DNA of 64,000 bases, taken from positions 3,525-67,524 of the forward strand of contig CAZCCU010000002.1 of the NCBI GenBank assembly GCA_964497645.1, read 5' to 3'. Shown one piece after another: positions 25,901-44,634 of the stretch (positions within the stretch are counted from its first letter, which is position 1; each line of letters opens with the position of its first letter). This DNA is from an uncultured Methanosarcinales archaeon. GTDB taxonomy: Archaea; Nanobdellota; Nanobdellia; Woesearchaeales; ARS49. The translations under genes were made by a program, and so were the position numbers. Under the pieces are notes generated by a model. The model saw only the letters and a list, made by a program, of their open reading frames with translations. It had not been told where the DNA came from and ran no database searches.

Positions 25901-25979
25901 GCGAATAGGCATAGTTATTGCAGTTGTTGTAATCGGCTTGATAGCGTACGCATTCTTCGTGCGCTGGGAATCATTTTAG
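19977..25979 (+). CDS. Giant (2000 aa) type-I membrane-anchored surface protein or adhesin
   Basis: The signal peptide reads MMKKLLLALLVLLAIPIVHAAADV. Repeated Ig/cadherin-like modules end in VNDAPV. A pentapeptide-like periodic segment follows, then a run of about 20 Gly, a Pro/Val linker PPVVPPPAVVPVVPVVEEEE, and a C-terminal TM helix IGIVIAVVVIGLIAYAFFV. Sequons are extremely frequent. Confidence 0.8.
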   Translation: MMKKLLLALLVLLAIPIVHAAADVTYNFNQNNVNASVYNCLDSACNQVGTFGGSIRDGPNVTDGTLTIRYPDTLNTHGYGAFFVSKGYRPLEIRATWHTNGNTGIASTSVNYEFTKYPITCRAVVSQLTFVNELQPNVPLVVNMSAKLDAQTASAFQLTNNEVGYVPPEFKQEYYGADTIVKMEVLQSGSVVHSQQQEFSAVKGNSLIADSTVPVQFTYLPTSTGNFAVKVTAQVVDDQCAATEDVNAQGAFTVLQALPTSQFYTILNGLTINNTHPRIGQPVLVSYNKITNHADGVLGPLTPVQTDVDYIVKNGATTIFSHTTTLFENPDAVNPVTYSFTFNPTSAGVYNITVKGRANSAIPTTNPEITDEESLLLTVIGSMSYKVAFNVRNADNGTPIENASVSLSGIGTNATNANGTISFSPVPEGMYTYTITAQGFGTKNDKVSVTTDKTISVSLHSGANESDANTAPFMNLPNQIEVETDSYARFNYHDYVQDDQDSDSSLVLSVVSGDDDITVNINQLTGVVTLTPEPSFSGSNTIRFRVTDTQNASETDSITVTVDATAVAPVWATVSDIETDEDTAAVRVLNLREFVSDADTPVANLVFSVVGVVPSTLATAQIDNGQYLTVYPKPDANDFGTINVTVSDGTTSVETSIDLDVTPVNDAPVVIAVPRIPNINESTNYTLNLSQVFRDVDGDPLYFNVTETMNVGFAISNSAQQMTILPEFNVTGTRTFNVTATDPSGLNATATFTLYLNFVDDSPFFTQVIPGILTFEETPNSRDLSPYEDDPEDGPGANGNTLTWKMQLANQSNVTPVTFISHPIFNASINTTTDFFLVLPKANQTGIVEMTLYLFDSTGKNVSQNITINITNVNDAPVFVNLSNQVVEAGTAFVYDVNATDSDPTNDTLAFSLNNVTPSLSGFSIDSATGMINYTPMVNGAFNVSLQVCDNFSACTNGTFALTVTDITAPVPDGQITPLNPSVYAPNASYTWGINWSDNGNITNVTFQLGNTNFTNVTQTGSFYQTTLLDLAAGNYTFAWFARDGANNVNMSNSSNFTILKANSTMDLLLNGTAGNITVPQTSNVTVMANITNTTGTVSIFRDGNLVGTGAAPLSINQSFPDQGTFNITSSFAGDQNYTGTSATHFVIVPDTTPPVFGTQTVSPASPAMFTSLYNFKVSVTDNVGVANVTLELDNATNSTASQIGNTSTWEANLTFISVGNHSFKWFANDSAGNQNSTAISNYTVTPGIAALTLTINGVAGNTNAQVSDSVTFVANVTNPAGGPVQLYINGTLASSGASPLTHVTSFASTGTMPILALFPGDANVATGNITRTLTITPIVTSANITPASGASLNYSTFLIALDTNGATTCKWSFTDVAQGSMTNSFTTANGLQHTANVTGYLLGPFSVSVACNGQSAITNTDLSYTAQNFLDGSTLNGLNNINNSIFTQGISNVSTVLNSNITTSESTNSALTNVTAINSEFIDSTLTNCVVTNSIVKDIIATGCTFTDSFVDPSNLTGSTIISSNTIDSNVTFSNVTDSTIVNANVNNSNVMDNSVIHVGINNVESSNLSNVHMHNSNVTNSALTDVFMDLTVVTNSVIDSADFIYNSTITDSTLVDVLTIRNSIITNSYVEDSSLFDVTVIDANITSGVIYSGVIISHLINLTYNATQDGPSNLTNFVNYAPFVLMTISPTSGIRVGTTVTFTANASDVNIGTLLNDSIVRYEFYLIDDNTPTITVNTSNTSVSVTHAYNATGTYFPFVLVYDSFGEVGGFGDTVNVSAAPSSGGGGGGGGGGGGGGGGGGGGSNIPRIALTDTPVTRIVYQGQPLQFSIEGKLQPLSVTLRRVVISGNGSTEWMSNGAQSTVMTGEHMLFDLTRDNIPELDLEVLSVSRGSTTISMKLASAPSVTTMPPLPVFNFTPVREQQPPVVPPPAVVPVVPVVEEEEVEVKAEVKQGFWQKLKDMFTIKLSAKSAAVRIGIVIAVVVIGLIAYAFFVRWESF
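25332..25391 (+). repeat. (GGN)20 triplet tract encoding a run of about 20 glycines inside the giant surface-protein gene
   Basis: The sequence is ggaggcggcggaggcggtggcggtggaggcggtggaggaggcggtggtggaggcggcgga. Confidence 0.9.
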
Positions 25980-29689: not shown

Positions 29690-29715
29690 AATTAAGGAAA
29701 GATTTATATATTAGT

Positions 29716-29789
29716 TATGTCTACTGTCAACTTCGTTGACTTAAAGTCAACCAAATGTGGGTAGGGAATTATCGACAACTTCGTTGTCG
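29716..29789. promoter_or_regulatory. Operator-like palindrome cluster in the divergent promoter region between the DUF3467/wHTH operon and grpE-dnaK-dnaJ
   Basis: GTCAACttcgTTGAC lies at 29716-29730, GTTGACTTaAAGTCAAC at 29725-29741, and CGACAACttcGTTGTCG at 29773-29789. Two copies of the core CAACTTCGTTG are about 57 bp apart. Confidence 0.4.
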
Positions 29790-29814
29790 GAACTTCCTCG
29801 GAGACCTCGGAAGC

Positions 29815-30312
29815 ATGGACGAAAAGGACAAGAAAGAACCAGTGGAGCACGAACAGTTCAAGCAAGAACTGGCAAAGAAAGAAGCGCTGATCGCAGACTA
29901 CACTGACCATTTGAAAAGACTGCAGGCAGAATTCGAAAACTACTGCAAACGCGTTGAAAAAGAACGCAAAGACTTTGCAGGCGTTGCATCAGAAAAACTC
30001 ATTGTCAAGCTATTGCTTGTAATCGATGACTTTGAACGCGCCCTGGCGACGCTCAAAAGCGTGCCGGAAGAAGCGCGAAAAGGAATCGAGATGATTTTCA
30101 AGAATTTACACAAGATTTTGCATGAAGAAAGAGTCGAGCAGATAAAAGCAGTAGGACAAAAATTAGACCCGTACAAGCACGAAGTCCTGCTGCAAACACA
30201 AAGCGACCAGCCAGACGACATCATACTCGAAGAATTACAAAAAGGATACACGATGAATGGAAAAGTCATCAGGTATGCTAAAGTAAAAATCAGCAAACAC
30301 GGAGGAAAATAA
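29815..30312 (+). CDS. grpE: Nucleotide exchange factor GrpE
   Basis: [29 protein letters not shown] and [12 protein letters not shown] match GrpE. The ATG at 29815 is preferred over the upstream ATG at 29755 used by the track. Confidence 0.85.
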
Positions 30313-30313
30313 A

Positions 30314-32137
30314 ATGGGTAAAGAAAAAATCATAGGCATAGATCTCGGCACATCGAACAGTGCAGCATCAGTTTTAGAAGCAGGCAGGCCAAAAATAATC
30401 CCGTCAGCAGAAGGAGTATCGCTATACGGAAAAGCATTCCCGTCATTCGTCGCGTTTACGAAGGATGGACAGCTTCTTGTTGGCGAGCCGGCAAGACGAC
30501 AAGCAGTCTCAAACCCGCACGGAACAATCTACGCTGCAAAAAGAAAGATGGGCACTAATTTCAAATACCAAATCCACGGCAAAGAATACACTCCTCAGCA
30601 AATTTCTGCGTTTATCCTGCAGAAGATCAAGCGAGATGCTGAATCATTCTTAGGAGAGCCAATAACGAAAGCAGTGATTACAGTTCCTGCCTACTTTGAT
30701 GATAATCAGAGACAAGCAACCAAAGACGCAGGAACAATCGCAGGATTGGAAGTTGTACGCATTGTAAATGAGCCAACATCAGCAGCACTCGCATACGGTC
30801 TTGACAAAGCAGGCCAGGAACAAAAGATTCTCGTGTTTGACCTTGGCGGCGGAACATTAGACGTCACAATCATGGACTTCTCAGAAGGAGTCTTTGAAGT
30901 CGTAAGCACATCAGGAGACACGCAGCTAGGTGGCACAGATATGGATAATGTGTTGATTAGCTACATTGTCAAGGACTTCCAGAAAGAATCTGGAGTTGAT
31001 TTGAGCACAGACGCAGTAGCAATGCAGAGAATCAGAGAATCAGCAGAAAAAGCAAAAATAGAATTGAGCACAGTACTTGAGACTGAAATCAACCTGCCAT
31101 TCGTCACGGCAACACAGCAAGGACCAAAACACTTGCAGATGAAGCTCACACGAGCCAAATTAGACGAGTTGATTGATCCGATAGTTAAAAAATGCAAGAA
31201 ATCAGTCGACCAAGCAATAAGCGACTCAAAATTAGCAGTCAAGGACCTACACAGAGTCGTCCTTGTAGGCGGACCAACAAGAATGCCACTAGTCCAGAAG
31301 TATCTGGAACAATGGTTCGGCAACAAGGTTGAAAGAAGCATCGACCCGATGGAATGCGTCGCAATGGGAGCAGCAATCCAAGCAGGAGTGCTCGCAGGAG
31401 AAGTAAAAGACATACTGTTGCTGGACGTCACACCATTAAGCTTAGGAATTGAGACACTCGGAGGCGTGTTCACCAAATTAATTGAAAGAAACACAACAAT
31501 TCCAGTAAAAAGAAGCCAAAACTTCAGCACTGCGGCAGACGACCAGTCAGCTGTCACAATAAGAATCTCGCAAGGAGAACGACCAATGTTTACTGATAAT
31601 AAACTGCTCGGACAATTCGACCTTGTAGGAATCCCGTCAGCTCCCCGCGGAATCCCGCAGATTGAAGTTACGTTCGATATTGACGCGAACGGAATACTCA
31701 ATGTTTCTGCAAAAGACCTTGGCACCGAAAAAGAACAGAGCATGAGAATAACAGCTCCAAACAAGCTGGACACGGCAGAAGTCGAAAAAATGCGCAAACA
31801 AGCAGAAGAGTTCGCAGAAGTTGACAAGAAAAAGAAAGACGAAATAGAAACAATCAACCAAGCAGACACGCTGGTCTACACTGCAGAAAAACAGATGAAA
31901 GACTTTGAAGGCAAAATAAGCGAAAAAGAAATAAAGGACGTCAAAGACAAGATAAACGAGCTCAAGAAATTATTGGCAGAGAGTCCACGAGACCCTGCAA
32001 AGATAAAGAAAAACCTTGACGAGTGCAACCACGTCCTGCACGCGGCAGCCACTGCTTTGTACCAAAAAGCAGGCGCAAAAGCGCAAAAGCCAGGCAAGGG
32101 CAAAGAAGAAGATGTCGTAGACGCGGAAAAAGCATAA
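30314..32137 (+). CDS. dnaK: Chaperone DnaK (Hsp70)
   Basis: [29 protein letters not shown] and the substrate-binding domain give full-length Hsp70 homology. Confidence 0.97.
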
Positions 32138-32155
32138 GTTCAAGAGACTGAACCA

Positions 32156-32314
32156 ATGGAATACAAACTATATGCGTACATCGCATTTGCACTCTTAGCA
32201 GTCTATTTCTTAGTGCGAATGGCAGAGCAATGGGCGATAAAAAAGCTCATAAGAGCAGAATTCGAACACGTTATTCATAGTGAGGAACACAAGGTCAAAG
32301 GACGATATCAATGA
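32156..32314 (+). CDS. Small one-helix membrane peptide; not in the ORF track
   Basis: It translates as MEYKLYAYIAFALLAVYFLVRMAEQWAIKKLIRAEFEHVIHSEEHKVKGRYQ (52 aa). Its stop overlaps the dnaJ ATG as ATGA. Confidence 0.3.
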   Translation: MEYKLYAYIAFALLAVYFLVRMAEQWAIKKLIRAEFEHVIHSEEHKVKGRYQ

Positions 32315-33375
32315 CCAAGGATTATTACAAGATTCTCGGAATAGAAAAAGGAGTGTCAACAGAAGACATCAAAAAGGCCTACAAGAAACTAGCCAAAAAA
32401 TACCATCCAGACATCAACAAAGAAGCCGGTGCATCTGACAAGTTCAAAGAAATAAACGAAGCAGCAGCGGTATTAGGTGACCCTGACAAAAGAGCGCAAT
32501 ACGACCAGTTCGGCACAGCAGACTCCGGACAACAATTCTCAGGATTCGACTTTAGAGACTTCGCTGGCAGTGTTAATTTTGATGACATATTCGACCAATT
32601 CTTCTCAGGATTCGGCTTCAAAAAAGGCAGAAGCGGAAGACCAGGCAGAGATTTAGTAGCAGAAGTCGATATTACACTAGAAGACGTAGCTAAGGGCGCT
32701 ACGCGAGAAATCGACGTGCAAAGAATGGTGCAGTGCGCAGAATGCCGAGGCAAAGGCGGAAGCAATTTCACACAATGCAACACCTGCCAAGGACAAGGCG
32801 TGGTAAGACACGCAAAAAGAACACCATTCGGAATGTTCGCAACGACAACATCCTGCAATAACTGCCGCGGCAGCGGAGAAGTCGCTGAAAACATCTGCAA
32901 AGAATGCGACGGAGAAGGAAGATTGGTAAGCAGAGAGCCAGTAAAAGTCAAAATACCAGCAGGAATACATGATGGAATGCGATTGCGCGTCAGCGGAGAA
33001 GGAGAAGCAGGAGAGCACGGAGCGCCAGCAGGAGACCTTTATGTTCTAGTACACGTCCCTGAAGACAAAAGATTCACCCGAGATGGAGAAGATTTGATCA
33101 TCGAACAGCCAATCAGCTTTTCAACAGCATGCATGGGTGGTGAGCTGACAGTTGAAACACTTGAAGGCAAGAAAAAAATCGATGTAAAGCCAGGAACGCA
33201 GAATAATTCTGAGATAAGGCTTGACGGAGAAGGACTTCCAGAGCTAAGAAGCGGAAGACAAGGAGACTTTGTAATAAAAATATCAGTTGAAGTCCCAAAG
33301 AAAATAAGCAAAAAACAGGCAGAGTTACTGAAAGAATTCGAGAAAGAAGGCAAAAAGAAATGGGGATTGTTCTGA
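32311..33375 (+). CDS. dnaJ: Chaperone DnaJ (type I)
   Basis: The J domain carries HPD in YHPDINKE. A G/F region follows, then four CxxCxGxG zinc-finger repeats and the C-terminal domains. Confidence 0.95.
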   Translation: MTKDYYKILGIEKGVSTEDIKKAYKKLAKKYHPDINKEAGASDKFKEINEAAAVLGDPDKRAQYDQFGTADSGQQFSGFDFRDFAGSVNFDDIFDQFFSGFGFKKGRSGRPGRDLVAEVDITLEDVAKGATREIDVQRMVQCAECRGKGGSNFTQCNTCQGQGVVRHAKRTPFGMFATTTSCNNCRGSGEVAENICKECDGEGRLVSREPVKVKIPAGIHDGMRLRVSGEGEAGEHGAPAGDLYVLVHVPEDKRFTRDGEDLIIEQPISFSTACMGGELTVETLEGKKKIDVKPGTQNNSEIRLDGEGLPELRSGRQGDFVIKISVEVPKKISKKQAELLKEFEKEGKKKWGLF

Positions 33376-34266
33376 TTATTTCTTAATATTTTTAACGTAA
33401 AAAGTTGACTCGTCCCCGTCAAATTTCAGCGCACGAGCGCTGTCATCATATATTTTCTTGAAATCATCAATAAGTCTTGCTCTCTTTGCCGGCTCTTTTC
33501 TGAACAAAGGATGTTTTTGTGCAGGATAAAGCCACACTTGATTAATATTGCCTATGCGGGCAACTTCGCAAGCAACTTTGAGGCCGAGAACACTGGTAGG
33601 GTCCGCCTTTGGATAATCAGTGCGGGTATCTTGTATTTGGTCAACAACAATAACATCGTCAGCTGCCATTTTCCTATACCAAAAGCCAACCGTGCTCAAA
33701 TGCTGGTATGGTTCCTCTGAGCCAGCTGGATGATGCAGAATTTCAATGTTGAATGGAGCATCAGAAACAACCGCTTCACCAGGCCTGTTACCAATGCCGA
33801 AATTCGTCCTGACTTTATAACGAGAACTGAAATCTTCGCCCAACCTGACGCGGTCGGTAAGTTCAGCACGCGTGTTGAATTGCCGAAGATAATCGATAAC
33901 GCCATTGCTGACAGTTGGTTCTGTGCCAATTAGATATGCCTCGAGAAGAAAATCAGGAACTGCCATTTTTCTTGCCAAAAGAGGGACAAGCGCTGCAGGC
34001 ATCACTCTAGGCGACGGTCTTAATTGATCGCCTGCAGTGTCAAAATAATTGTCAGCACCATCTAAATTACTTAAATCATCCTTGAGTAACTCAAAAGCAT
34101 CAGATAAGTCTTTGTCCGAAAGGGGCTCTTGTGTATTTAGAATGGTTCCAAGATTGCACCGCAACTCAGAAAACCTACCTTCGCAAGTGACCTCTCTCTT
34201 ACGTCTAGAGTCCCCCATAACCACCGGCGAGTGATTAATATATAAAAATCTACCGTTTTTAAGCAT
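33376..34266 (-). CDS. Unknown-function protein, paralog B of a tandem pair
   Basis: It shares CEGRF(S/N)EL, R(T)(N/K)FGIG, VV(S/P)DAP(F/Y)(N/S)IE, VGFWY, QIQ, KHP(L/M)F and Y(D/Y)DS(A)(R/K)ALxF with the upstream gene. Confidence 0.6.
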   Translation of the reverse strand: MLKNGRFLYINHSPVVMGDSRRKREVTCEGRFSELRCNLGTILNTQEPLSDKDLSDAFELLKDDLSNLDGADNYFDTAGDQLRPSPRVMPAALVPLLARKMAVPDFLLEAYLIGTEPTVSNGVIDYLRQFNTRAELTDRVRLGEDFSSRYKVRTNFGIGNRPGEAVVSDAPFNIEILHHPAGSEEPYQHLSTVGFWYRKMAADDVIVVDQIQDTRTDYPKADPTSVLGLKVACEVARIGNINQVWLYPAQKHPLFRKEPAKRARLIDDFKKIYDDSARALKFDGDESTFYVKNIKK

Positions 34267-34268
34267 AC

Positions 34269-35213
34269 TTATAACACCTTCTTATAATAAGTACTTCTGG
34301 TTCCTGTAAAACCTAGAGCTTTAGCACTAGAGTCGTAGTACCCAGTAAATTCACCTTTCATTCTTGGCTTTCTATCCGGAAATTGCATAAACATAGGGTG
34401 CTTGTCTGCGGAATAGGTCTCTATTGCTCCGAAGCCCAGTTGTCTGGCTACCAGCTCGGCAATCTCCATGCCAACGATTCCCATTTGGGAGTCATTGCCA
34501 GGAAGCTGAGCCTTCTGGGGCTGCTGAATCTGGCTAATAACCATGACATCTTTCTTTTCCATAGGATCGTGTTTATACCAGAAACCAACAAGCAAAGACG
34601 GCTTTTTATCAGGGTTGAAAAGCTCAATACTGTACGGAGCGTCTGGAACAACAGCATCAGCTTCAGTGCGGCCAATGCCAAACTTGGTTCTTAATGAAAA
34701 TCCTCTTAAAGGAGCTCTATCAGGAGCTAAGCGAATAGGCTGTTCATAGCCCTTTTTAGCCTTCTCGTGATCCTTAACGGTCTCTTTTCGGATAGCTATC
34801 CGCCTTGAATCCAGGTCAAGATCAAGCTCTTCTTCAAGGTCCAGACCTTTGTGCCATTTTCCAAGGAGGCCGGCCATCCTGCTTCCGCAATTCTGGCGTT
34901 CTAAATAGCCTCGTGGTAAGCTTTCTTCCATCACGAATGCTCTGGAAATAAGCGGGACGAGATCTATGTGGGCATCAGCATCTGCATGTAATGAGTTAGG
35001 CCTAATAATATCCATATTTGACTGGAAATATGGGTCCAGTGGGTCAATAGTTTCCAGCCGATTAGCAATTAGGAAATAGGCATCCCTTAGCTCTTTAGGA
35101 GTCACACTCCTACTAAGACCTGGGGGCAATAGCAGTTCAAGAGCTTCAGTCAATTCGCCAGTAAGCTCGTTGAACCTTCCTTCACATTTTATAGTTCTTA
35201 CCTCGTTTTCCAT
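34269..35213 (-). CDS. Unknown-function protein, paralog A of a tandem pair
   Basis: It shows the same motif set as 33376-34266 at about 35-40% identity over the full length (estimated by eye). The two genes are 2 bp apart on the same strand. Confidence 0.6.
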   Translation of the reverse strand: MENEVRTIKCEGRFNELTGELTEALELLLPPGLSRSVTPKELRDAYFLIANRLETIDPLDPYFQSNMDIIRPNSLHADADAHIDLVPLISRAFVMEESLPRGYLERQNCGSRMAGLLGKWHKGLDLEEELDLDLDSRRIAIRKETVKDHEKAKKGYEQPIRLAPDRAPLRGFSLRTKFGIGRTEADAVVPDAPYSIELFNPDKKPSLLVGFWYKHDPMEKKDVMVISQIQQPQKAQLPGNDSQMGIVGMEIAELVARQLGFGAIETYSADKHPMFMQFPDRKPRMKGEFTGYYDSSAKALGFTGTRSTYYKKVL

Positions 35214-35351
35214 AGTACTACTATGTAGTGGTTAAAGTATATAAATCTTACTGTTTTTACCACTTTTAAGTGACTAAATAAGAGAGGTTTAAATAGCGAA
35301 GACAATATCACTTACTTCTTTAAAGCAGGTGAAAACAGAATTTGTAATGCT

Positions 35352-35888
35352 CTAGGCACACAGTTCTCTCAATCTCTTCAAAGCGCGAGCCTTGAAAGTG
35401 CGGACTTTTGACGCCGGTACTTTCAGCATAGCCCCAATTTCAACAAAAGTATGCGGTTTTTGGTCGTACAAACCATAATGGGAAGTAATCACGTACCGCT
35501 CATGCAGAGGCAAAGACTTCACTTCCCTGCAAAGCCTGTTAATAGCCGACCGGTCCTCTCTATTAATGATGTCATCCAGCGGAGTCCGCCCATGCGCAGC
35601 ATCATGATCAAGAGAGTCAAACGGCTCAAAGTGCCTCGACCGGCGCTTTTCAGTCTTAGTGATGTCCATAATCTTACGGCCCATGCACGTACAGACATAC
35701 GTTGAAAAAGATCCTTTTTTAGGATCATACTTCTGGGCAACTTCCCACATCCTGAACGCTGCTTCCTGCGCAGCATCATCACGCAGATAAAGAGGGCTAC
35801 GATTTTTTGCCATCGCATACGCCAAGCGCATATGAGAAGCAACCAAAGAGTCAACCGGCTTATTACTTCCCTGATAGTCCCCACTCAT
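35352..35888 (-). CDS. Sigma-70-family protein (regions 2 and 4; ECF-sized, 178 aa)
   Basis: Region 2 reads DDAAQEAAFRMWEVAQKYDPKKGSFSTYVCTCMGRKIMDITKTEKRR, against the consensus D-L-V-Q-E ... F-S-T-W-L ... Rxxxd. Region 4.2 reads LPLHERYVITSHYGLYDQKPHTFVEIGAMLKVPASKVRTFKARALKRLRE, against RFGL..TLEEIG....VTRERIRQIE.KALRKLR. Confidence 0.65.
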   Translation of the reverse strand: MSGDYQGSNKPVDSLVASHMRLAYAMAKNRSPLYLRDDAAQEAAFRMWEVAQKYDPKKGSFSTYVCTCMGRKIMDITKTEKRRSRHFEPFDSLDHDAAHGRTPLDDIINREDRSAINRLCREVKSLPLHERYVITSHYGLYDQKPHTFVEIGAMLKVPASKVRTFKARALKRLRELCA

Positions 35889-35975
35889 GTAAATCAGGAA
35901 TTTGGAGAGCTATAAAAAGATATCGCGATGATTTAAGTCACAATCTTTATAATAGCAAAAAACTTTTGCAAGATC

Positions 35976-36632
35976 ATGGGGGAATTAGCTATAGCAGTTC
36001 TAATGCGCGAACTAATATGCAGATTGAGCCCTTCATATGGTGATGTCGCGCGGAGATTTAAAGACGAACAAGACAAAAAACCCCACAAGCCATACGACGA
36101 GGCAAACATCCTTGGAAAAGTATCCAAACACTACCTCAGATGCATCATCGAAAGCGCACCACGACTGTTCAAAAGCGTCCATGAAATCGAAGGAAGAGAT
36201 TCCTACTATTCAACAGACAACGGCTGCCAAATGCTTGTCGAAACAGCAGCCCTTGACCCAAACAGGAAAGACGTGTGCACTATTGACACTCTGACAGAAT
36301 TCAACGGCCGCACAGCCTTAATCGACATAAGAGCCAGCGATTGGGCAAACATACGAGAGAACTATTTCACAAAAAGAAAAGGATACGTGCCAATACTTGA
36401 TGCCATCTTTGGACAAGATGCATATGACAGAATCCTATTATTATGCAGCGACGTCCCGCCAACACGCGATGAAATCGGAAGGCGGATAGACAAAAGATTC
36501 CACAGAGGAGTCCACATCGTAAAACTGCAACTTGAGCTTGCACAGCTGGAAAGAATGGCATCCAACATCGGACGCCAATACAAACTGCTCAGACCAGTCA
36601 GCCCTATCACGCCAAAGACTACAAGTCCATAA
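35976..36632 (+). CDS. Hypothetical cytoplasmic protein
   Basis: It is a 218-aa ORF divergent from the sigma-like gene. No motif was recognised. Confidence 0.5.
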   Translation: MGELAIAVLMRELICRLSPSYGDVARRFKDEQDKKPHKPYDEANILGKVSKHYLRCIIESAPRLFKSVHEIEGRDSYYSTDNGCQMLVETAALDPNRKDVCTIDTLTEFNGRTALIDIRASDWANIRENYFTKRKGYVPILDAIFGQDAYDRILLLCSDVPPTRDEIGRRIDKRFHRGVHIVKLQLELAQLERMASNIGRQYKLLRPVSPITPKTTSP

Positions 36633-36664: not shown

Positions 36665-37315
36665 ATGGTCAGCGTATATCTTCAAGGCCCAAAATGGTTC
36701 TTCGGAGCAGATGCCAGTTTAGAAGCTTTTGCAGCAGTGATTGCTTTATGCGTTGCGTTCGCGTCATTTCGCGTCTACAGGATGACGCGCGAGAAAAAAT
36801 ACGGCTATTTCACAGCAAGCATGATGTTGTTAACGCTCAGCTTCCTATCACGCGCAATAGCTGACACGCTGCTTGAAGAGTTGCTATTCACACTGCCCAG
36901 CAACGTGACAGGGTTAATCTTCTTCATAGGATACGTCGCGCACATTCTACTCGCATTGATCGCATACCTGATCCTAGTAATTGTTACATACAAAATAACT
37001 GACAAGCGCATCATAACATTGCTGTTCATTCTCACACTGCCAAGCCTGCTGATCAGCGGCAGCTATTTCCTAAGCTTCTACGGGCTAAGCGCCATATTGC
37101 TCGCATTCATCGCGTTTTCATATTACCAAAACTACCGCAAAGTGTGCAAAGCATCAGCGTGCATGGTATTTGTATCATTTCTGCTTTTGACGCTCGCGCA
37201 AGTCCTGTTCCTGTTCGAAGCAATCCATGACCCGCTCTACGTCGCAGCACACGTCACACAAGCAGCAGGATATCTCGTATTACTTTCCGCACTGGTTAAA
37301 ACCCTACTCAAATGA
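36665..37315 (+). CDS. Polytopic membrane protein (about 6 TM helices)
   Basis: It is strongly hydrophobic with regularly spaced helices. It overlaps the next gene by 4 bp. Confidence 0.5.
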   Translation: MVSVYLQGPKWFFGADASLEAFAAVIALCVAFASFRVYRMTREKKYGYFTASMMLLTLSFLSRAIADTLLEELLFTLPSNVTGLIFFIGYVAHILLALIAYLILVIVTYKITDKRIITLLFILTLPSLLISGSYFLSFYGLSAILLAFIAFSYYQNYRKVCKASACMVFVSFLLLTLAQVLFLFEAIHDPLYVAAHVTQAAGYLVLLSALVKTLLK

Positions 37316-37578
37316 AAAGGTCAAAACTCGACATTGTGTACGACATGCTTCGAGCAATCGAAGACAAGGGAGGAAAGATTATTCCCACACACTTACTTTA
37401 CAAGTCAAACCTTTCACACCAACGAATGAAATTGTATCTAGAAGAGTTGAAGCAAAGAAACCTGATTGCTGAAACACGTTTCAAAGAAAAATTACACTAT
37501 ATGTTAACAGACGAAGGCAGAAAATTCGTGCAAAACTACAAACAGATGAAACAGTTCACTGAGGCGTTCGGACTTTAG
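37312..37578 (+). CDS. Small archaeal winged-helix DNA-binding protein
   Basis: KLDIVYDMLRAIEDKGGKIIPTHLLYKSNLSHQRMKLYLEELKQRNLI is a typical about-90-aa wHTH protein. Confidence 0.5.
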   Translation: MKRSKLDIVYDMLRAIEDKGGKIIPTHLLYKSNLSHQRMKLYLEELKQRNLIAETRFKEKLHYMLTDEGRKFVQNYKQMKQFTEAFGL

Positions 37579-38113
37579 GCTTAACTAGAGCGTATACTTG
37601 GCCGTTCCATAGATATCCAGCGGCTTTTTCTTTCACAACATCAGGAAAGTCTAGAAGCTCGTGGAAAGCCTCAATATTGTTTGGCAGGCCAGAAACATAA
37701 GCCGTGCTTTTCGCCACCTGTTTTTTAGTATCCCGCACTAAAGCAGTAGCGAGAAGAAGAGCATATCGGTCTTCCTCAGCCATGCTGTTCTTCCATGCGA
37801 TTTCAACAGTCTTCCTGCGCAGAGCTTTATGGTCCTTGCGACCAACACCAGCAGTGTAGTTCTCAAATGTTGCGCGGATTCTATCTATAGTGTAGCCATC
37901 AACTGGATTTTTTGCGGGTTTTAATGACTGGAACAAATGCTGAGGCAAACGCCGGTTAGAAACTCTCCTAATCGCTTTGACAAATCCATCGAGCCCATCG
38001 TAATAGGAATATGTGATTTGCTGACCCGCAAAAGGAACAAACAAAGCAGAAAAGTCAAAAACAACTAAATCATGAGCCTTACAGATACCTTCCAAGCCAA
38101 AATCTCCACCCAT
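37556..38113 (-). CDS. Hypothetical protein
   Basis: It is a 185-aa ORF with no recognised motif. Confidence 0.45.
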   Translation of the reverse strand: MGGDFGLEGICKAHDLVVFDFSALFVPFAGQQITYSYYDGLDGFVKAIRRVSNRRLPQHLFQSLKPAKNPVDGYTIDRIRATFENYTAGVGRKDHKALRRKTVEIAWKNSMAEEDRYALLLATALVRDTKKQVAKSTAYVSGLPNNIEAFHELLDFPDVVKEKAAGYLWNGQVYALVKPKVRTPQ

Positions 38114-41073: not shown

Positions 41074-41856
41074 TCAGCCGCCCGCGCTCGTATATTTCTT
41101 CATCGCGGAATTCCACAACAGCAATGAGCAGCCAAAATAAAGAACCACTGGAATAAGATATAACAACATCTTTGGCGTAAAGCCCTCGATAAGTATTTGC
41201 GCAGGAACATAACTGCTAACCGCCACCGGAAACAGGAAAATCAGGAAAAACTTGATGCCGACCCCATAAACGTTCAACGGGTAACGAGCAAAGTCAGTCA
41301 GCTTGGAATGCAAATGCAATAACGCCTCGCTCTTAACAGCAATAAAACCCAGTGAAGCAATAAAGATCTGCGAAGCGACAATCACTGAAGTGCCGGCAAG
41401 CACGAAAAACAAGTACATCAGCATGGCAAGGCTAAACACCGCAATCCCCAGCTCGCCCATGGAATAAATCACGATAATCAAGCCAGCCAACACTTCAACA
41501 AGACCATACTGGTCAACAGTCAAAGCCATAATGTACAACAAAGCAGAATAAGGCTTCAGCAAATACTGGTCAAAATTACCCCAGTTAATCGCGTCAAGAA
41601 CCCACCACGAAAAAGCATAAGAAATCGTGCGAGCCAAGCCGAAAATCATGATCAACGTGCCCTGGAATAACAACAACTGCGGCAAAGACCAGCCAGGAAT
41701 ACCCTTAGACGAAGTATAAATGAAGATAGACGTCAAAGGCATCAACAAATCAGAAAAGGCAGTGGAAAGAGCCTTGATGAAAAAATCACCCTTGTACGCA
41801 AAATCACGAAGCAACCAAATCTTCATACATCTCCATAGCAGCTTAAGATATTTCAT
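41074..41856 (-). CDS. ABC-2 family transporter permease
   Basis: It has 6 TM helices. It overlaps the upstream permease by 4 bp, which indicates an operon. Confidence 0.6.
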   Translation of the reverse strand: MKYLKLLWRCMKIWLLRDFAYKGDFFIKALSTAFSDLLMPLTSIFIYTSSKGIPGWSLPQLLLFQGTLIMIFGLARTISYAFSWWVLDAINWGNFDQYLLKPYSALLYIMALTVDQYGLVEVLAGLIIVIYSMGELGIAVFSLAMLMYLFFVLAGTSVIVASQIFIASLGFIAVKSEALLHLHSKLTDFARYPLNVYGVGIKFFLIFLFPVAVSSYVPAQILIEGFTPKMLLYLIPVVLYFGCSLLLWNSAMKKYTSAGG

Positions 41857-42656
41857 ACGCCCACACTCGAGTACAACTTATACGCCCGCTTCCATACTAT
41901 GTAAATAAGTCCGTATAAAGCAGCAATCCAGAACAATTGAACTCCAAGCGCTCTCAACACTTCCGCATTCGAAATAGTGCCGAGATAAATCGTAATCGGC
42001 ACGAACCTCGTGCTTTCAAAAGGCAAATAATGGAGCGCAGACTGCGCCCATTCAGGAAACAAAGTCAGCGGGATAAAACTGCCACCAAGAAAACCAAGCA
42101 CAACCCTGCGAACTCTCCTCAAACCAGTAATCTTCTTCAGCCAGAACGCAGACAATCCCAAAAGGAAAGTCATGCCGTAATAAATGAAAAATGCCAAAAG
42201 CAAAGAGATAAGGAACGCGATGAAGTTAAAGGCAGGAGCGATACCAAGACCGAAGAACACAAAACCAATAATGAAAACAGGAATCATCTGCCAGATGATG
42301 TTCATAATGTTGATCCCAATCTCAAAAAACATGTACCACGATATAAAAGAGACAGGCCTCAACAAGCCCGAAATAGTACTGCCGTGAAGCAAATCCATCT
42401 CAACCCACTTATCGACCTCAGACCAGGTGAAAAAACCAACAATCATGCTCAGCACATAATAGTTAATCATCTGCTGAAGAGTAAAACCACGAATGACTTC
42501 CTGCCCGGTATAAGAGTAGACCGACGTCCACAGAAAATAATAGATGATTAGCGAGATGGGAACACTCAGCAAGCCCACAACAAATTCAAACCTATACGTA
42601 CTCCAAATCTTTATGCCCTTCTTTGCAATAGCCCAATGCGCATAAATACCGCTCAT
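41853..42656 (-). CDS. ABC-2 family transporter permease
   Basis: It has 6 TM helices. It overlaps the ATPase gene by 4 bp. Confidence 0.6.
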   Translation of the reverse strand: MSGIYAHWAIAKKGIKIWSTYRFEFVVGLLSVPISLIIYYFLWTSVYSYTGQEVIRGFTLQQMINYYVLSMIVGFFTWSEVDKWVEMDLLHGSTISGLLRPVSFISWYMFFEIGINIMNIIWQMIPVFIIGFVFFGLGIAPAFNFIAFLISLLLAFFIYYGMTFLLGLSAFWLKKITGLRRVRRVVLGFLGGSFIPLTLFPEWAQSALHYLPFESTRFVPITIYLGTISNAEVLRALGVQLFWIAALYGLIYIVWKRAYKLYSSVGV

Positions 42657-43636
42657 TCTCTGTAAATCTTCCTGATTATTTCCTCAATAGGAGGATCGGC
42701 AACAGTGATGTCAGCAACATCAAAATTCTTGAGCAGGTAGTTAATCAAGTCCTGGACTGGCGCTTTTTTCGTGTTAAGCTCTATCTTAATCTGGTAATCT
42801 TGCTTGTCAATAACCTTGCAGCCTTTGAACTTGAACGTGCGGATTTTATCACCGAACTTCACCTCGATATGCTTGTCAGTGAAGTACTTCTTTTTGATGT
42901 CCTCCAACGGGCCGTCGTAAATAATCCTGCCATGATTAATGATGATAATTCTCTTGCACAACTTCTCAATATCCTGCATGTCATGCGTGGTGATAATGAA
43001 CGTTGTTTTTTGCTCCCTGTTGATTTTTAAGATAAAATCTCTTAGTTTGTCTTTGGCAATGACATCCAAGCCAATGCTCGGCTCGTCAAGAAAAACAAGC
43101 CTAGGATAATGAAGCAAGGCATTAATCACTTCACAACGCATGCGCTCTCCTAATGAAAGCTCTCGCACTGGAGACTTCATGATTTCCTGCACTTCCAACA
43201 TCTTAACCATAAAGTTCAACCGCTTAGAAAAATCAGGCTCTGGAACATCATACAAGTCTTTATTTATGTAGAATGAGTCAATTGGAGGAAGGTCCCAAAT
43301 CATCTGAGACTTCTGACCAAACACTACTCCGATATTCGCCACGTACTTGATCCTATTCTCCCACGGAACCATTCCCAATACATTGGCTTCACCGCCATCA
43401 GGCCATAAAAGACCAGAAAGAATCTTGATCAAAGTAGACTTGCCAGCACCATTCGGACCAATAAGGCCAACAATCTCGCCTTCCTGCACTTCCAAGCTGA
43501 CTTTCTTCAAAGCGTCCTTTATAGTATACTCTCTGCTAAAAAGAGACTTAACAGCTTCAAGCACTCCCTGACCGCGCTTGTAAACCTTGAAAGTCTTGCG
43601 CAAGTCCTTAACACTAATAGCCGGCATACTCACCAC
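42653..43636 (-). CDS. ABC transporter ATP-binding protein
   Basis: GPNGAGKST is Walker A, the Q-loop is present, LSLGERMRCEV is the signature motif, LVFLDEPSIGLD is Walker B, and TTHDMQ carries the H-loop. Confidence 0.9.
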   Translation of the reverse strand: MVSMPAISVKDLRKTFKVYKRGQGVLEAVKSLFSREYTIKDALKKVSLEVQEGEIVGLIGPNGAGKSTLIKILSGLLWPDGGEANVLGMVPWENRIKYVANIGVVFGQKSQMIWDLPPIDSFYINKDLYDVPEPDFSKRLNFMVKMLEVQEIMKSPVRELSLGERMRCEVINALLHYPRLVFLDEPSIGLDVIAKDKLRDFILKINREQKTTFIITTHDMQDIEKLCKRIIIINHGRIIYDGPLEDIKKKYFTDKHIEVKFGDKIRTFKFKGCKVIDKQDYQIKIELNTKKAPVQDLINYLLKNFDVADITVADPPIEEIIRKIYRE

Positions 43637-43653: not shown

Positions 43654-44634
43654 TTAAGAACTACTTAAAGGTTGTGGGCGCTTTTTAATACCGACGGCAA
43701 CATCACGCAAGTTAATCAATAATTCGTAAGCAAACCCGATCTTTGCAATCGAAGCAGAATCCAAACCATTGCCTTTGAACGACCGCTTCTCAATCTCATA
43801 AAACTTTTCGCGCAGCCTAATAATTTCCATGTAATCCTCCTCTTTTCCATGAATAAAGAACTGGCTGCACGCGTCAACCGCTTTCTTAATATCATTAAGA
43901 AGAATAAAAACATCATTGCTTACCTTCTTAGCGCCTGTCTTCGCCAAAATCATAGGAATCATGTAAATCTGGTCTCCCACCAATTCCAACTGCACCAATG
44001 CAGCGTACAACTCGTTCCCAACCTTAACGTCCTTATGCCCTTTCTTGTTCAAAATGCGCATGCAAAAATTGCAAAACTTGTTAACACCGCGGTCATACAG
44101 CCAAACATCCTTCAACTGGTCCGGCTTCATCGTTCGCAAAGCTTCCAGCGCCTGCTCAACCTGGTCCTGCAATCTGAAAAATATTTTTCTAAAAGCAGCA
44201 TCAAACTCCTCCTCAAGGCCCTCACTAAACTGCTTAATTATGAACAAGTTCGGAGAAGACTTCTCAATCTCCATGCCAAACAATTCTGTTGTGACAAGAT
44301 TCTCAATCTCCTCTTTCATGCTCACCTTGCGCTGAGTGCGTGAATGAACCAGCATCACATTTTCATACTCAACCTCGATTGTTTCAGCACCCATACGATA
44401 CGCTTCTGCAATATTACGGCGCAATTGAGTGATAGTGAGCCCGCGCGCGTCAATAAGCACAACTTTCTGAGAAACAGGGCCTTTCTTCGCGTTTAGAACA
44501 ATAGTGCTGCCATTCTCATCAACATCAAGCTCGTCCCCAGCCTTCAAGCCATACTGCTTAATCCATGATGCAGGAAGCGTGACGGTAAAAGAACCATGTT
44601 CTCTGTCCCCCTGCCGTATCAATTTACGCTTCAT
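43654..44634 (-). CDS. AbrB/SpoVT-like N-terminal domain fused to a PhoU-like helical domain (putative regulator)
   Basis: The N-terminus GSFTVTLPASWIKQYGLKAGDELDV is a swapped-hairpin AbrB-like domain. The rest is helical and resembles archaeal PhoU-domain proteins. Confidence 0.5.
   Translation of the reverse strand: MKRKLIRQGDREHGSFTVTLPASWIKQYGLKAGDELDVDENGSTIVLNAKKGPVSQKVVLIDARGLTITQLRRNIAEAYRMGAETIEVEYENVMLVHSRTQRKVSMKEEIENLVTTELFGMEIEKSSPNLFIIKQFSEGLEEEFDAAFRKIFFRLQDQVEQALEALRTMKPDQLKDVWLYDRGVNKFCNFCMRILNKKGHKDVKVGNELYAALVQLELVGDQIYMIPMILAKTGAKKVSNDVFILLNDIKKAVDACSQFFIHGKEEDYMEIIRLREKFYEIEKRSFKGNGLDSASIAKIGFAYELLINLRDVAVGIKKRPQPLSSS

What the first reader, a model, noticed from the sequence alone, without database searches (positions are those of the whole stretch)
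33376..35975. Sigma-70-family protein in an archaeal chromosome, heading a three-gene cassette
ORF 35352-35888 (minus strand) has a clear sigma-70 region 2 (DDAAQEAAFRMWEV...GSFSTYV...KRR) and region 4.2 helix-turn-helix (ERYVITSHYGL...TFVEIGAMLKVPASKVRTFKARALKRLRE). Archaea transcribe with TBP/TFB and are not expected to encode sigma factors. The surrounding contig is nonetheless unambiguously archaeal: L15e, family-B Pol, archaeal TIM, Sec11-type signal peptidase. The sigma-like gene lies 138 bp upstream, on the same strand, of two paralogous genes of unknown function, and is divergent from a hypothetical/membrane/wHTH operon. This could be a horizontally acquired bacterial or viral regulatory module, or a repurposed DNA-binding protein.
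Basis: partly seen in the sequence, partly recalled or inferred. Interest (0 to 1): 0.8.

Follow-up and report, generated by a model that had tools for sequence, protein, structure and literature searches.

The report
Sigma-70 homolog domesticated in an archaeon
An uncultured archaeon really does carry a bacterial-type sigma-70 family gene, long resident in its chromosome and driven by a normal archaeal promoter. It is not part of a three-gene cassette, such genes have been reported in archaea before, and what it does there is still unknown.

Summary
ORF 35352-35888(-) passes the curated cut-offs for Sigma70_r2, Sigma70_r4 and TIGR02937. The contig is archaeal (L15e, PolB, archaeal TIM and signal peptidase).

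- **No cassette.** The two downstream paralogs are a separate GNAT-fold gene pair with their own TATA box. They occur without a sigma in other archaea, and they are absent beside the sigma in close relatives.
- **The real partners.** In all six lineages recovered, the sigma is divergent from a 7-TM membrane protein plus wHTH (HTH_45) operon. In four of them it also sits next to a co-inherited protein with a tentative HTH plus nuclease-like fold (35976-36632).
- **Not ECF.** The protein descends from RpoD/RpoS-type sigmas and has lost region 3. It keeps the region 2.2 core-binding triad and the FSTY motif, but lacks the W-dyad and the -10-reading residues.
- **Expression and selection.** It has a conserved archaeal BRE/TATA promoter and a leaderless start. 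dN/dS is about 0.15-0.26, with dN four to five times that of its neighbours.
- **Prior art.** Sigma-70 genes in DPANN archaea were reported by Castelle et al. 2021.

My best reading is a domesticated sigma-derived regulator. The mechanism is inferred, not shown.

The parts
35352..35888 (-). Sigma-70 family gene, 178 aa. Region 2 spans residues 15-82 and region 4 spans 125-175, joined by a ~42-aa linker. There is no region 1.1 or region 3. The N-terminus has an invariant MSxD motif.
   Evidence: Pfam r2 41.4 bits and r4 33.5 bits; TIGR02937 65.9 bits. A PDB profile search is best against SigA/RpoS. The family is small: 9 clusters, and 7 representatives at E <= 1e-30 out of 1.84 billion. dN/dS is 0.15-0.26.
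35909..35925 (-). Archaeal BRE/TATA promoter of the sigma gene (CGATATCTTTTTATAGC). The TATA centre lies about 26 nt before the ATG, which implies a leaderless mRNA.
   Evidence: A near-identical element precedes every sigma gene in the family, including the second copy in L013, while the rest of each spacer has diverged. It occurs once in the window.
35976..36632 (+). hyp218, the co-inherited partner gene. It has an N-terminal helical (HTH-like) region and a C-terminal domain with a PD-(D/E)xK nuclease-like fold. D104, D117 and R119 are invariant.
36665..37315 (+). Polytopic membrane protein (about 7 hydrophobic segments by eye) with weak MASE3/DUF7521 similarity. It forms an operon with the wHTH gene.
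   Evidence: Pfam MASE3 E 4e-5, below the cut-off. It is divergent from a sigma-family gene in all six lineages, at 59-90% identity.
37312..37578 (+). Small winged-helix protein (HTH_45 / Sso10a-like). Its start overlaps the stop of the membrane-protein gene.
   Evidence: PF14947 62.7 bits. NF053610 57.3 bits, just below its cut-off of 60. It is conserved at 80-95% identity in every locus where it is complete.
34269..35213 (-). Paralog A: an N-terminal helical region plus a C-terminal GNAT (acyl-CoA N-acyltransferase) fold. It is the first gene of an independent two-gene unit and is not functionally tied to the sigma.
33376..34266 (-). Paralog B: a divergent copy of A (30% identity), starting 2 nt after A's stop codon.
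   Evidence: BLASTP E 2e-35. The A+B order is conserved in L008, L010 and L011.
35238..35245 (-). TATA box (TTTATATA) of the GNAT pair, about 28 nt before paralog A's ATG.
   Evidence: Read directly from the sequence. Equivalent TATA boxes precede paralog A homologs in the sigma-less loci L008, L010 and L011.
29755..33375 (+). Bacterial-type grpE-dnaK-(52-aa ORF)-dnaJ operon. It is the conserved neighbour on the other side of the variable spot. The true grpE start is probably 29815.
   Evidence: Pfam GrpE. tblastn synteny in L001/L020, L007 and L013.
29726..29751 (+). Candidate operator at the grpE promoter: GTCAAC-N3-GTTGAC-N5-GTCAAC, just downstream of the TATA box. Any link to the sigma is hypothetical.
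   Evidence: Conserved in L001/L020 and L007. It is the only cluster of these hexamers in the window and in each of those loci. As an RNA fold it is not significant, z = -1.29.

Best explanation
ORF 35352-35888(-) is a true sigma-70 family gene. It descends from the RpoD/RpoS-type branch and has been reduced to region 2 plus region 4. It has long been resident and vertically inherited in a narrow, uncultured archaeal lineage.

**Shown**
- It is transcribed on its own from a conserved archaeal BRE/TATA promoter, apparently as a leaderless mRNA.
- It is under purifying selection but evolves faster than its neighbours.
- It is not operonic or co-inherited with the downstream GNAT-fold pair.
- Its conserved genomic partners are a divergently transcribed 7-TM membrane protein plus wHTH operon and, in most lineages, a co-distributed protein with a tentative nuclease-like fold.

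**Inferred**
- It no longer works as a canonical promoter-melting sigma. It acts as a domesticated auxiliary transcription regulator alongside TBP/TFB.
- It would use its region 4 HTH to bind DNA, and possibly its intact region 2.2 surface to contact the RNA polymerase clamp or another partner.
- The membrane protein/wHTH pair may supply the signal input that anti-sigma factors supply in bacteria.
- Candidate targets are its own locus and the adjacent bacterial-type grpE-dnaK-dnaJ operon, whose promoter carries three conserved TTGAC-type half-sites.
For: **Identity.** r2, r4 and TIGR02937 all score above their curated cut-offs. The best PDB matches are SigA/RpoS r2 and r4. The nearest library relatives are RpoD/RpoS/SigK types.

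**Residence in the archaeal chromosome**
- No GC, tetranucleotide or codon-usage break.
- The identical protein was read on 12 contigs, and the four places shown come from four samples with the same gene order.
- The gene sits at the same locus in relatives with 45-64% identical sigmas.
- The archaeal BRE/TATA element CGATATCTTTTTATAGC is conserved about 26 nt before the ATG in every family member.

**Selection.** dN/dS is 0.15-0.26. dN is 0.265, against 0.02-0.07 for dnaK, dnaJ, the membrane protein and the wHTH over the same genome pair.

**Residue pattern**
- Invariant across both subfamilies: D38/Q41/E42, F61, and LPLxxRxV in region 4.1 (LPLxERxVIT within the window's own subfamily). D38/Q41/E42 align with D403/Q406/E407 of E. 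coli sigma-70 region 2.2 (numbering from my own knowledge).
- The W433/W434 positions are Thr/Cys. A 4-residue gap removes Q437-T440.
- The -35-reading positions of region 4.2 vary among orthologs.

**Partners.** The membrane protein and wHTH are divergent from a sigma-family gene in 6 of 6 lineages. The hyp218 family has the same narrow distribution and shares contigs with the sigma family.

**No cassette.**
Against: - No biochemical or expression data exist, so the mechanism is inference from conservation and neighbourhood.
- All recovered loci come from one fairly narrow lineage. Shared gene order may therefore reflect descent rather than functional coupling.
- The TTGAC-type operator is found only at grpE, not at the sigma promoter. 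As a palindrome it suits a dimeric wHTH at least as well as a monomeric region 4.
- The most conserved surfaces (2.2 and 4.1) are, in bacteria, polymerase-binding rather than DNA-reading. That points as much towards the polymerase-binding rival as towards a plain DNA-binding regulator.
- Those same segments are also the structural cores of the two domains.
Confidence: 0.55

Rival explanations
1. The protein still behaves like a sigma towards a polymerase. Its region 2.2 docks on the clamp coiled-coil of the archaeal RNA polymerase (Rpo1N, homologous to bacterial beta-prime clamp helices and the site used by TFE and Spt4/5). There it acts as an alternative initiation or anti-initiation factor.
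For: The region 2.2 triad D38/Q41/E42, the FSTY motif and region 4.1 are invariant or nearly so, while the DNA-reading residues are lost or variable. No anti-sigma domain and no bacterial polymerase gene lie nearby. Homology of the clamp coiled-coil across domains is established knowledge.
Against: The W-dyad and the region 2.4 residues needed for -10 recognition and melting are missing. The flap-tip helix that region 4 docks on in bacteria is, as far as I know, not conserved in archaeal polymerase. There is no direct evidence of binding. Regions 2.2 and 4.1 are also the fold cores, so their conservation does not discriminate.
Confidence: 0.13
2. The sigma-like protein and hyp218 form a fast-evolving conflict or mobile-type module. 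An HTH regulator or targeting subunit is paired with a PD-(D/E)xK nuclease-fold effector at a variable hot spot between conserved genes.
For: Between the window and L007, sigma is 62% and hyp218 29-33% identical, while the flanking genes are 89-97% identical. hyp218 changes side of the sigma between lineages. The spot also accepts other cargo: the GNAT pair here, and a second sigma plus a 337-aa ORF in L013. The fold resembles Can2/Card1, McrC, HamA, SduA and restriction enzymes.
Confidence: 0.15
3. The protein is a dedicated regulator of the adjacent bacterial-derived grpE-dnaK-dnaJ operon, perhaps co-acquired with it. It would read the TTGAC-type half-sites at the grpE promoter, as a remnant of sigma-dependent heat-shock control.
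For: The sigma is immediately next to dnaJ in L001/L020 and L013/L014, and separated from it only by variable-spot genes in the window and L007. A conserved, unique GTCAAC-N3-GTTGAC-N5-GTCAAC element lies at the grpE promoter. TTGAC is the core of the -35 element read by region 4.2 in bacteria (own knowledge).
Against: In L016 the sigma is not next to dnaJ. The R584/E585-equivalent residues that read TTGACA are not conserved. The element is palindromic and overlaps the expected transcription start, which is typical of a dimeric repressor such as the neighbouring wHTH. Many DPANN carry the DnaK-DnaJ-GrpE system, and no such link has been reported.
Confidence: 0.1
4. The segment is a bacterial contaminant or a chimeric join in a metagenomic assembly.
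For: The gene family is otherwise bacterial, and it lies beside another bacterial-type operon (dnaK).
Against: There is no compositional break. The four places shown reproduce the junctions in four samples. The locus is syntenic on 107-, 115- and 137-kb archaeal contigs. The gene has an archaeal BRE/TATA promoter. No close bacterial homolog exists among 1.84 billion representatives.
Confidence: 0.02

Closest known systems
Sigma-70 homologs in DPANN archaea (fam00359 of Castelle et al. 2021, Front Microbiol, PMC8204110)
   Same: A sigma-70-annotated gene on contigs with archaeal marker genes. No anti-sigma factor is found. [quoted passage not shown] The function is unknown.
   Different: That paper reports presence only. 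It does not describe the promoter, the residue pattern, the conserved membrane/wHTH and nuclease-like neighbours, or the adjacency to the dnaK operon. I could not test whether this family belongs to fam00359. The only named relative here is a MAG labelled Methanosarcinales, not Woesearchaeota.
Bacterial group 1/2 sigma factors (RpoD/SigA, RpoS)
   Same: These are the best sequence matches for both region 2 and region 4. They share the DxxQE core-binding motif, the FSTY motif, and a region 4.1/4.2 HTH with a 'GL...P.T..EIG' pattern.
   Different: This protein has no region 1.1, 1.2 or 3. It lacks the W-dyad and has a 4-residue deletion in region 2.3/2.4. The -35-reading residues are variable. 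It is 178 aa rather than 280-620 aa. The host has an archaeal polymerase and archaeal promoters.
ECF (group 4) sigma factors
   Same: The two-domain r2-linker-r4 architecture and the size. It also matches the generic TIGR02937 model.
   Different: Region 4 matches PF04545, not the ECF-type PF08281. There is no co-transcribed anti-sigma gene and no ECF-type autoregulated promoter. The nearest relatives are not ECF sigmas.
Phage-encoded sigma factors (PHROG 351 / 1740)
   Same: phrog_351 gives the highest single profile score, 86 bits. Phage sigmas are also small, divergent sigma factors.
   Different: There is no close viral relative: the best IMG/VR hit is 27% identical. The locus is chromosomal and syntenic, with no viral genes.
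N-terminal acetyltransferases of the GNAT superfamily (NatD/Naa40 and others), for the paralog pair
   Different: No GNAT HMM match. The acetyl-CoA loop motif is not clearly present, and in paralog B the corresponding loop carries a deletion. There is a long N-terminal helical extension. The genes occur as a tandem paralog pair.

Membership tests
Sigma-70 family (PF04542 + PF04545; TIGR02937) | Region 2 domain detected above the curated cut-off | tested here: met
   PF04542 41.4 bits against 24, residues 15-82, profile positions 1-70 of 71.
Sigma-70 family (PF04542 + PF04545; TIGR02937) | Region 4 HTH domain detected above the curated cut-off | tested here: met
   PF04545 33.5 bits against 24.1, residues 125-175. 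TIGR02937 full length 65.9 bits against 42.9.
Sigma-70 family (PF04542 + PF04545; TIGR02937) | Region 2.2 core-polymerase-binding residues (E. coli D403/Q406/E407; numbering from my own knowledge) | tested here: met
   D38, Q41 and E42 align to these positions. They are invariant in all 15 family sequences.
Sigma-70 family (PF04542 + PF04545; TIGR02937) | Region 2.3/2.4 promoter-melting and -10-reading residues (Y425, Y430, W433, W434, Q437, T440) | tested here: not met
   F427 and Y430 equivalents are kept in the window's own subfamily (F61 and Y64, the FSTY motif), though Y64 becomes Leu in the second subfamily. The W433/W434 positions are Thr/Cys in the window protein. Y425 and Q437-T440 fall in alignment gaps.
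Sigma-70 family (PF04542 + PF04545; TIGR02937) | Works with a bacterial-type core RNA polymerase encoded in the same genome | not testable with these tools
   Only 64 kb is in hand, and the markers present are archaeal. No polymerase subunit gene was identified among the window ORFs I scanned.
ECF (group 4) sigma factors | ECF-type region 4 (PF08281) and nearest relatives among ECF sigmas | tested here: not met
   PF08281 12.3 bits against 25.7. The nearest relatives are RpoD/RpoS/SigK types.
ECF (group 4) sigma factors | Co-transcribed anti-sigma factor | tested here: not met
   The downstream genes have a GNAT fold and their own promoter. No neighbour has an anti-sigma domain in Pfam or NCBIfam.
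Archaeal sigma-70 homologs (fam00359, Castelle 2021) | Sigma-70 gene on a contig whose other genes are phylogenetically archaeal | tested here: met
   L15e, PolB, archaeal TIM and archaeal signal peptidase lie on the same contig. It has archaeal promoters.
Archaeal sigma-70 homologs (fam00359, Castelle 2021) | Sequence membership in fam00359 and a DPANN host | not testable with these tools
   The family's sequences are not held. The only organism label available is 'uncultured Methanosarcinales archaeon' for L007, and I could not verify it.
GNAT acyl-CoA N-acyltransferases (paralogs A and B) | GNAT fold | tested here: met
GNAT acyl-CoA N-acyltransferases (paralogs A and B) | Acetyl-CoA pyrophosphate-binding motif (Q/R-x-x-G-x-G/A) and an HMM match | tested here: inconclusive
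   No Pfam or NCBIfam hit at E <= 1. The loop after beta-4 reads SQMGIVG in A, and the corresponding segment in B carries a deletion.
PD-(D/E)xK nucleases (hyp218) | Restriction-endonuclease-like fold with a D...(D/E)-x-K catalytic motif | tested here: inconclusive
MZA anti-phage system sigma (MzaA) and other known defence systems | Match to a PADLOC or NCBIfam system model | tested here: not met
   PADLOC MzaA 15.3 bits, E 1e-3, region 4 only. No hits for hyp218, the paralogs or the membrane protein.

The most novel reading that the evidence does not exclude
A bacterial sigma has been re-wired to the archaeal transcription machinery. Its invariant region 2.2 surface docks on the clamp coiled-coil of the archaeal RNA polymerase, the site used by TFE and Spt4/5. 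The protein then acts as an alternative initiation or anti-initiation factor, controlled by the conserved 7-TM/wHTH pair. This would be a working hybrid of the bacterial and archaeal initiation systems.
Probability: 0.13. Interest if true: 0.9.

Novelty: new member of a known kind. Interest (0 to 1): 0.5.

Why it matters
Sigma factors and TBP/TFB are the textbook divide between bacterial and archaeal/eukaryotic transcription initiation. A sigma-70 homolog kept under purifying selection in an archaeon, with its polymerase-binding motif intact and its DNA-melting residues gone, is a natural experiment in moving a sigma across that divide.

This analysis turns a bare annotation, already noted for DPANN in 2021, into a defined and testable system:
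- a specific protein family;
- its archaeal promoter;
- its true conserved partners (a membrane protein, a wHTH and a nuclease-like protein);
- a candidate target operator at the neighbouring dnaK operon.

It also removes a misleading lead, the 'three-gene cassette'. If the protein binds the archaeal polymerase clamp, that would bear on the proposed functional equivalence of sigma region 2 and TFE. If it is merely an HTH regulator, the finding is of modest interest.

Tried and rejected
- **Chimera or contamination.** Rejected: GC, tetranucleotide and codon usage are all unremarkable, the junctions are reproduced in independent assemblies, and the locus is syntenic on long archaeal contigs.
- **ECF sigma.** Rejected.
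- **Viral origin.** The IMG/VR scan gave only a 27% generic hit. PHROG matches are generic sigma families.
- **Known defence system.** PADLOC was negative.
- **Sigma plus GNAT pair as an operon or mobile cassette.** Rejected: the pair has a separate TATA box, it is not co-inherited with the sigma, and it has no flanking repeats above chance.
- **Bacterial-type promoters nearby.** Sigma-70 consensus sites are not enriched (9 against 15.8 +/- 4.4 expected), and none lies in the spacers flanking the sigma.
- **Sigma promoter element as a regulon motif.** It occurs only once in the window.
- **The grpE element as an RNA thermometer or switch.** The fold z-score is -1.29, not significant.
- **Rfam and tRNA scans of the window.** Nothing found.
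- **Organism name.** Two exact-cluster look-ups gave only 'uncultured archaeon' for a DnaK cluster mate.
- **Other dead ends.** The supplement search for fam00359 found nothing. The AFDB fold library was unavailable. The metagenome scan added only three family loci (L019, L020, L021); the rest were generic bacterial sigmas.


Full report

Yes.
- the sigma-like gene at 35352-35888(-), 178 aa;
- a 138-bp spacer;
- two same-strand genes at 34269-35213 and 33376-34266;
- on the other side, a divergent set at 35976-36632, 36665-37315 and 37312-37578.

The 178-aa protein passes the curated thresholds of Pfam Sigma70_r2 (41.4 bits against 24) and Sigma70_r4 (33.5 against 24.1). It also passes NCBIfam TIGR02937 (65.9 against 42.9). 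The two downstream proteins are paralogs, at 30% identity and E 2e-35.

The contig is archaeal. It carries ribosomal protein L15e, which is closest to archaeal ribosome structures (189 bits against 124 or less for eukaryotes). It also carries a family-B polymerase, an archaeal-type TIM and an archaeal signal peptidase I, the last two above their curated cut-offs.

**2. Is it an assembly artefact or a recent import?**

No.
- GC is flat.
- The tetranucleotide profile of 33376-35975 lies at z = 0.29 from the contig mean. Sigma codon usage is at the low end of the native range but within it.
- The identical protein was read on 12 contigs. The four places shown come from four different samples and have the same gene order.
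- Relatives with 45-64% identical sigmas have the gene at the same locus. These include 107-, 115- and 137-kb contigs.
- An exhaustive HMMER search of 1.84 billion representatives found only 7 proteins at E <= 1e-30. Scores then drop to generic bacterial sigmas: 102 bits or less, against 274 within the family. So there is no close bacterial donor.
- There is no close viral relative either. The best IMG/VR hit is 27% identical.

**3. What kind of sigma is it?**

It is not an ECF sigma. The ECF-type region 4 model fails (12.3 bits against 25.7). A profile of the family matches SigA and RpoS structures best, in both region 2 and region 4. Its nearest non-family relatives in the big library are RpoD/RpoS/SigK types.

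The architecture is minimal: region 2, a ~42-aa linker and region 4, with no region 1.1 or region 3.

A second subfamily appeared in L013/L014, L021 and in P0026, P0027 and P0031. It retains an N-terminal 'GDxxAR' segment of the kind I associate (own knowledge) with group 1-3 sigmas, and may be closer to the ancestral form.

The residue pattern is informative. The E. coli numbering below is from my own knowledge.

| Feature in E. coli sigma-70 | State in this family |
|---|---|
| Region 2.2 core-binding positions D403/Q406/E407 | D38, Q41, E42; invariant in both subfamilies |
| F427 (part of the FSTY motif) | F61; invariant in both subfamilies |
| S428, Y430 (rest of FSTY) | Conserved in the window's own subfamily; Y becomes Leu in the second subfamily |
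| Region 4.1 | LPLxERxVIT in the window's subfamily; LPLxxRxV invariant in both |
| W433/W434 melting dyad | Thr/Cys in the window protein |
| Y425 and Q437-T440 (-10 reading) | Fall in alignment gaps |
| Region 4.2 residues that read the -35 element | Vary among orthologs |

So the surfaces that hold a sigma on polymerase are the best conserved, and the surfaces that read and melt a bacterial promoter are not. This is suggestive only, because regions 2.2 and 4.1 are also the fold cores of the two domains.

**4. How is it expressed and how is it evolving?**

Every sigma gene of the family is preceded by a near-identical CG(C)ATATCTTTTTATAGC element. This includes the second copy in L013. The TATA centre is about 26 nt before the ATG, while the rest of each spacer has diverged. 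That is a canonical archaeal BRE/TATA promoter for a leaderless mRNA, so the gene is read by the host's own machinery.

Bacterial-type -35/-10 matches are not enriched in 29-40 kb (9 against 15.8 +/- 4.4 expected). None lies in the spacers flanking the sigma.

dN/dS is 0.15-0.26, which means purifying selection. Between the window and L007, however, dN is 0.265 for the sigma against 0.02-0.07 for dnaK, dnaJ, the membrane protein and the wHTH. The sigma is 62% identical where DnaK is 97%.

**5. The 'three-gene cassette' does not hold.**

- The 138-bp spacer contains a TTTATATA box about 28 nt before paralog A's ATG. Equivalent boxes precede paralog A homologs elsewhere.
- The A+B pair is a conserved two-gene unit in other archaeal contexts, with no sigma beside it. 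Its neighbours there include Rpr2, CarS, RIO1, a Lon-related protease, SRP54 and a SUF operon.
- Conversely, the sigma has no pair beside it in L001/L020, L007, L016 and L013.
- No GNAT HMM matches, and the acetyl-CoA loop motif is unclear.
- No flanking repeats mark an insertion.

The pair is best seen as unrelated cargo in a variable spot.

**6. The true conserved neighbourhood.**

A polytopic membrane protein (weak MASE3/DUF7521 similarity) and an overlapping HTH_45 winged-helix gene are divergent from a sigma-family gene in all six lineages recovered. Those lineages are the window, L001/L020, L007, L016, L013/L014 and L021.

The 218-aa protein at 35976-36632 belongs to a family of only 8 clusters, found on the same contigs as the sigma family. 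It is adjacent to the sigma in four lineages but on either side. It is extremely divergent, at 29-36% identity between genomes whose DnaK is 97% identical.

Its model is tentative, because only one of five was confident at pLDDT 80. It shows an N-terminal helical region and a PD-(D/E)xK nuclease-like domain:
- Foldseek E 2e-4 to VC1899 and Can2;
- invariant D104...D117-I-R119, with Arg where Lys is canonical.

No PADLOC system matches.

On the other side lies the bacterial-type grpE-dnaK-dnaJ operon. It is adjacent to the variable spot in the window, L001/L020, L007 and L013/L014, but not in L016.

**7. A candidate target.**

Just downstream of the grpE TATA box is GTCAAC-N3-GTTGAC-N5-GTCAAC (29726-29751). 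It is conserved in L001/L020 and L007, even though synonymous divergence between these genomes is high and in several comparisons saturated. It is the only cluster of these hexamers in the window and in each of those loci. A degenerate extra copy lies at 29774-29788.

As RNA it is not significantly structured (z = -1.29), so a DNA operator is more likely. TTGAC is the core read by region 4.2 in bacteria (own knowledge). However, the element is palindromic and overlaps the expected start site, which would suit a dimeric repressor such as the neighbouring wHTH at least as well. I treat the link to the sigma as a hypothesis to test, not a finding.

**8. Most likely mechanism.**

The following are shown:
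- a sigma-70-family gene of group 1-3 ancestry;
- long residence in an archaeal chromosome;
- expression from an archaeal promoter;
- purifying selection;
- conserved linkage to a membrane/wHTH pair and a nuclease-like partner.

The rest is inferred. I think it acts as a domesticated auxiliary transcription regulator rather than a promoter-melting sigma. It would use the region 4 HTH for DNA, and possibly region 2.2 for a protein partner (the polymerase clamp or hyp218). The membrane/wHTH pair may provide signal input.

The rivals are a true polymerase-binding factor (0.13), a conflict or mobile module with the nuclease-like protein (0.15), a dedicated dnaK-operon regulator (0.10) and an artefact (0.02).

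**9. Comparison with what is known, and novelty.**

Castelle et al. 2021 (PMC8204110) already reported sigma-70 genes, especially in Woesearchaeota. They ruled out mis-binning and found no anti-sigma factors. [quoted passage not shown] This window matches that description.

The only organism label I could obtain for a close relative is 'uncultured Methanosarcinales archaeon'. I could not verify it.

The finding is therefore a new, better-characterised member of a known but unexplained kind. The surprise value of 'sigma in an archaeon' is reduced by the prior report. The value added here is the correct gene neighbourhood, the residue-level diagnosis, the archaeal promoter and concrete experiments. 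I score interest at 0.5.

Noticed in passing
window 29700-29790 (+): The grpE-dnaK-dnaJ promoter has a TATA box followed by a conserved triple half-site element, GTCAAC-N3-GTTGAC-N5-GTCAAC (29726-29751). A degenerate extra copy, GACAACTTCGTTGTC, lies at 29774-29788. The cluster is unique in the window and conserved in L001/L020 and L007. It is probably the heat-shock operator of this lineage.
   Followed up: partly
window 29755-29815 (+): The longest grpE ORF starts at 29755. The orthologous loci have stop codons in this stretch and start at the equivalent of M21 ([12 protein letters not shown] at 29815). The true start is therefore probably 29815, and 29755-29814 is 5' UTR carrying the operator copies.
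   Followed up: partly
window 32156-32314 (+): A 52-aa ORF with a hydrophobic segment lies between dnaK and dnaJ. It is conserved at 51-77% identity in L001, L007 and L013. To my knowledge such a gene is not a standard part of bacterial dnaK operons.
   Followed up: no
L013 1031-3270; L014 2237-4476; L021 3358-3600: Some relatives carry two sigma-family genes at this locus, flanking a 337-aa ORF with no Pfam match. The extra copy belongs to a second subfamily (MSEDYVGxRGY..., with a GDxxAR segment). It has the same BRE/TATA element and a shared CTTGAT motif upstream.
   Followed up: partly
window 35877-35888 (-), and all family loci: The N-terminus MS(G/E)D(Y) is invariant across both subfamilies. 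The first codons, ATGAGTG(G/A)(G/A)GAC, are nearly identical at the nucleotide level. This could be a constraint on a leaderless start, or an N-terminal modification or recognition motif. After Met removal the end would be Ser-Gly. That recalls, from my own knowledge, the substrate of NatD, the top fold match of the neighbouring GNAT protein. This last point is pure speculation.
   Followed up: no
P0028 (721 aa), P0024 (1692 aa), P0029, P0032: Metagenomic proteins made of many tandem Sigma70_r4 modules score among the closest relatives of this family's region 4. P0028 has 6 or more PF04545 repeats at 225 bits. P0024 has 12 matched stretches. They look like poly-HTH arrays built from sigma region 4. 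Their origin and context are unknown.
   Followed up: partly
L009 (GCA_035626895.1, DASPMU010000073.1) and L008: An NCBI MAG labelled 'Alphaproteobacteria bacterium' carries the GNAT paralog pair in a clearly archaeal context: a CarS-like CDP-archaeol synthase, the RNase P subunit Rpr2, deoxyhypusine synthase and RIO1. The taxonomic label is probably wrong.
   Followed up: partly
window 37556-38113 (-); L001 7264-8414: A 185-aa ORF with no family match, convergent with the wHTH gene, is conserved in all the longer loci (41-75% identity). It is tandemly duplicated in L001.
   Followed up: no
window 19977-25979, 44770-49809, 50588-54772 (+): The window holds three giant ORFs. One is 2000 aa with Big_9, cadherin-like and CarboxypepD_reg domains. 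One is 1679 aa with a subtilase domain and a MopE-type metal-binding motif. One is 1394 aa with no Pfam match. Many other ORFs of 200-620 aa also have no family match.
   Followed up: partly
window 43654-44634 (-) and 41074-43636 (-): A 326-aa protein with an N-terminal MazE/AbrB-type domain sits immediately upstream of an ABC-2 transporter operon (one ATPase and two permeases). The block is conserved in L007 and L016.
   Followed up: no
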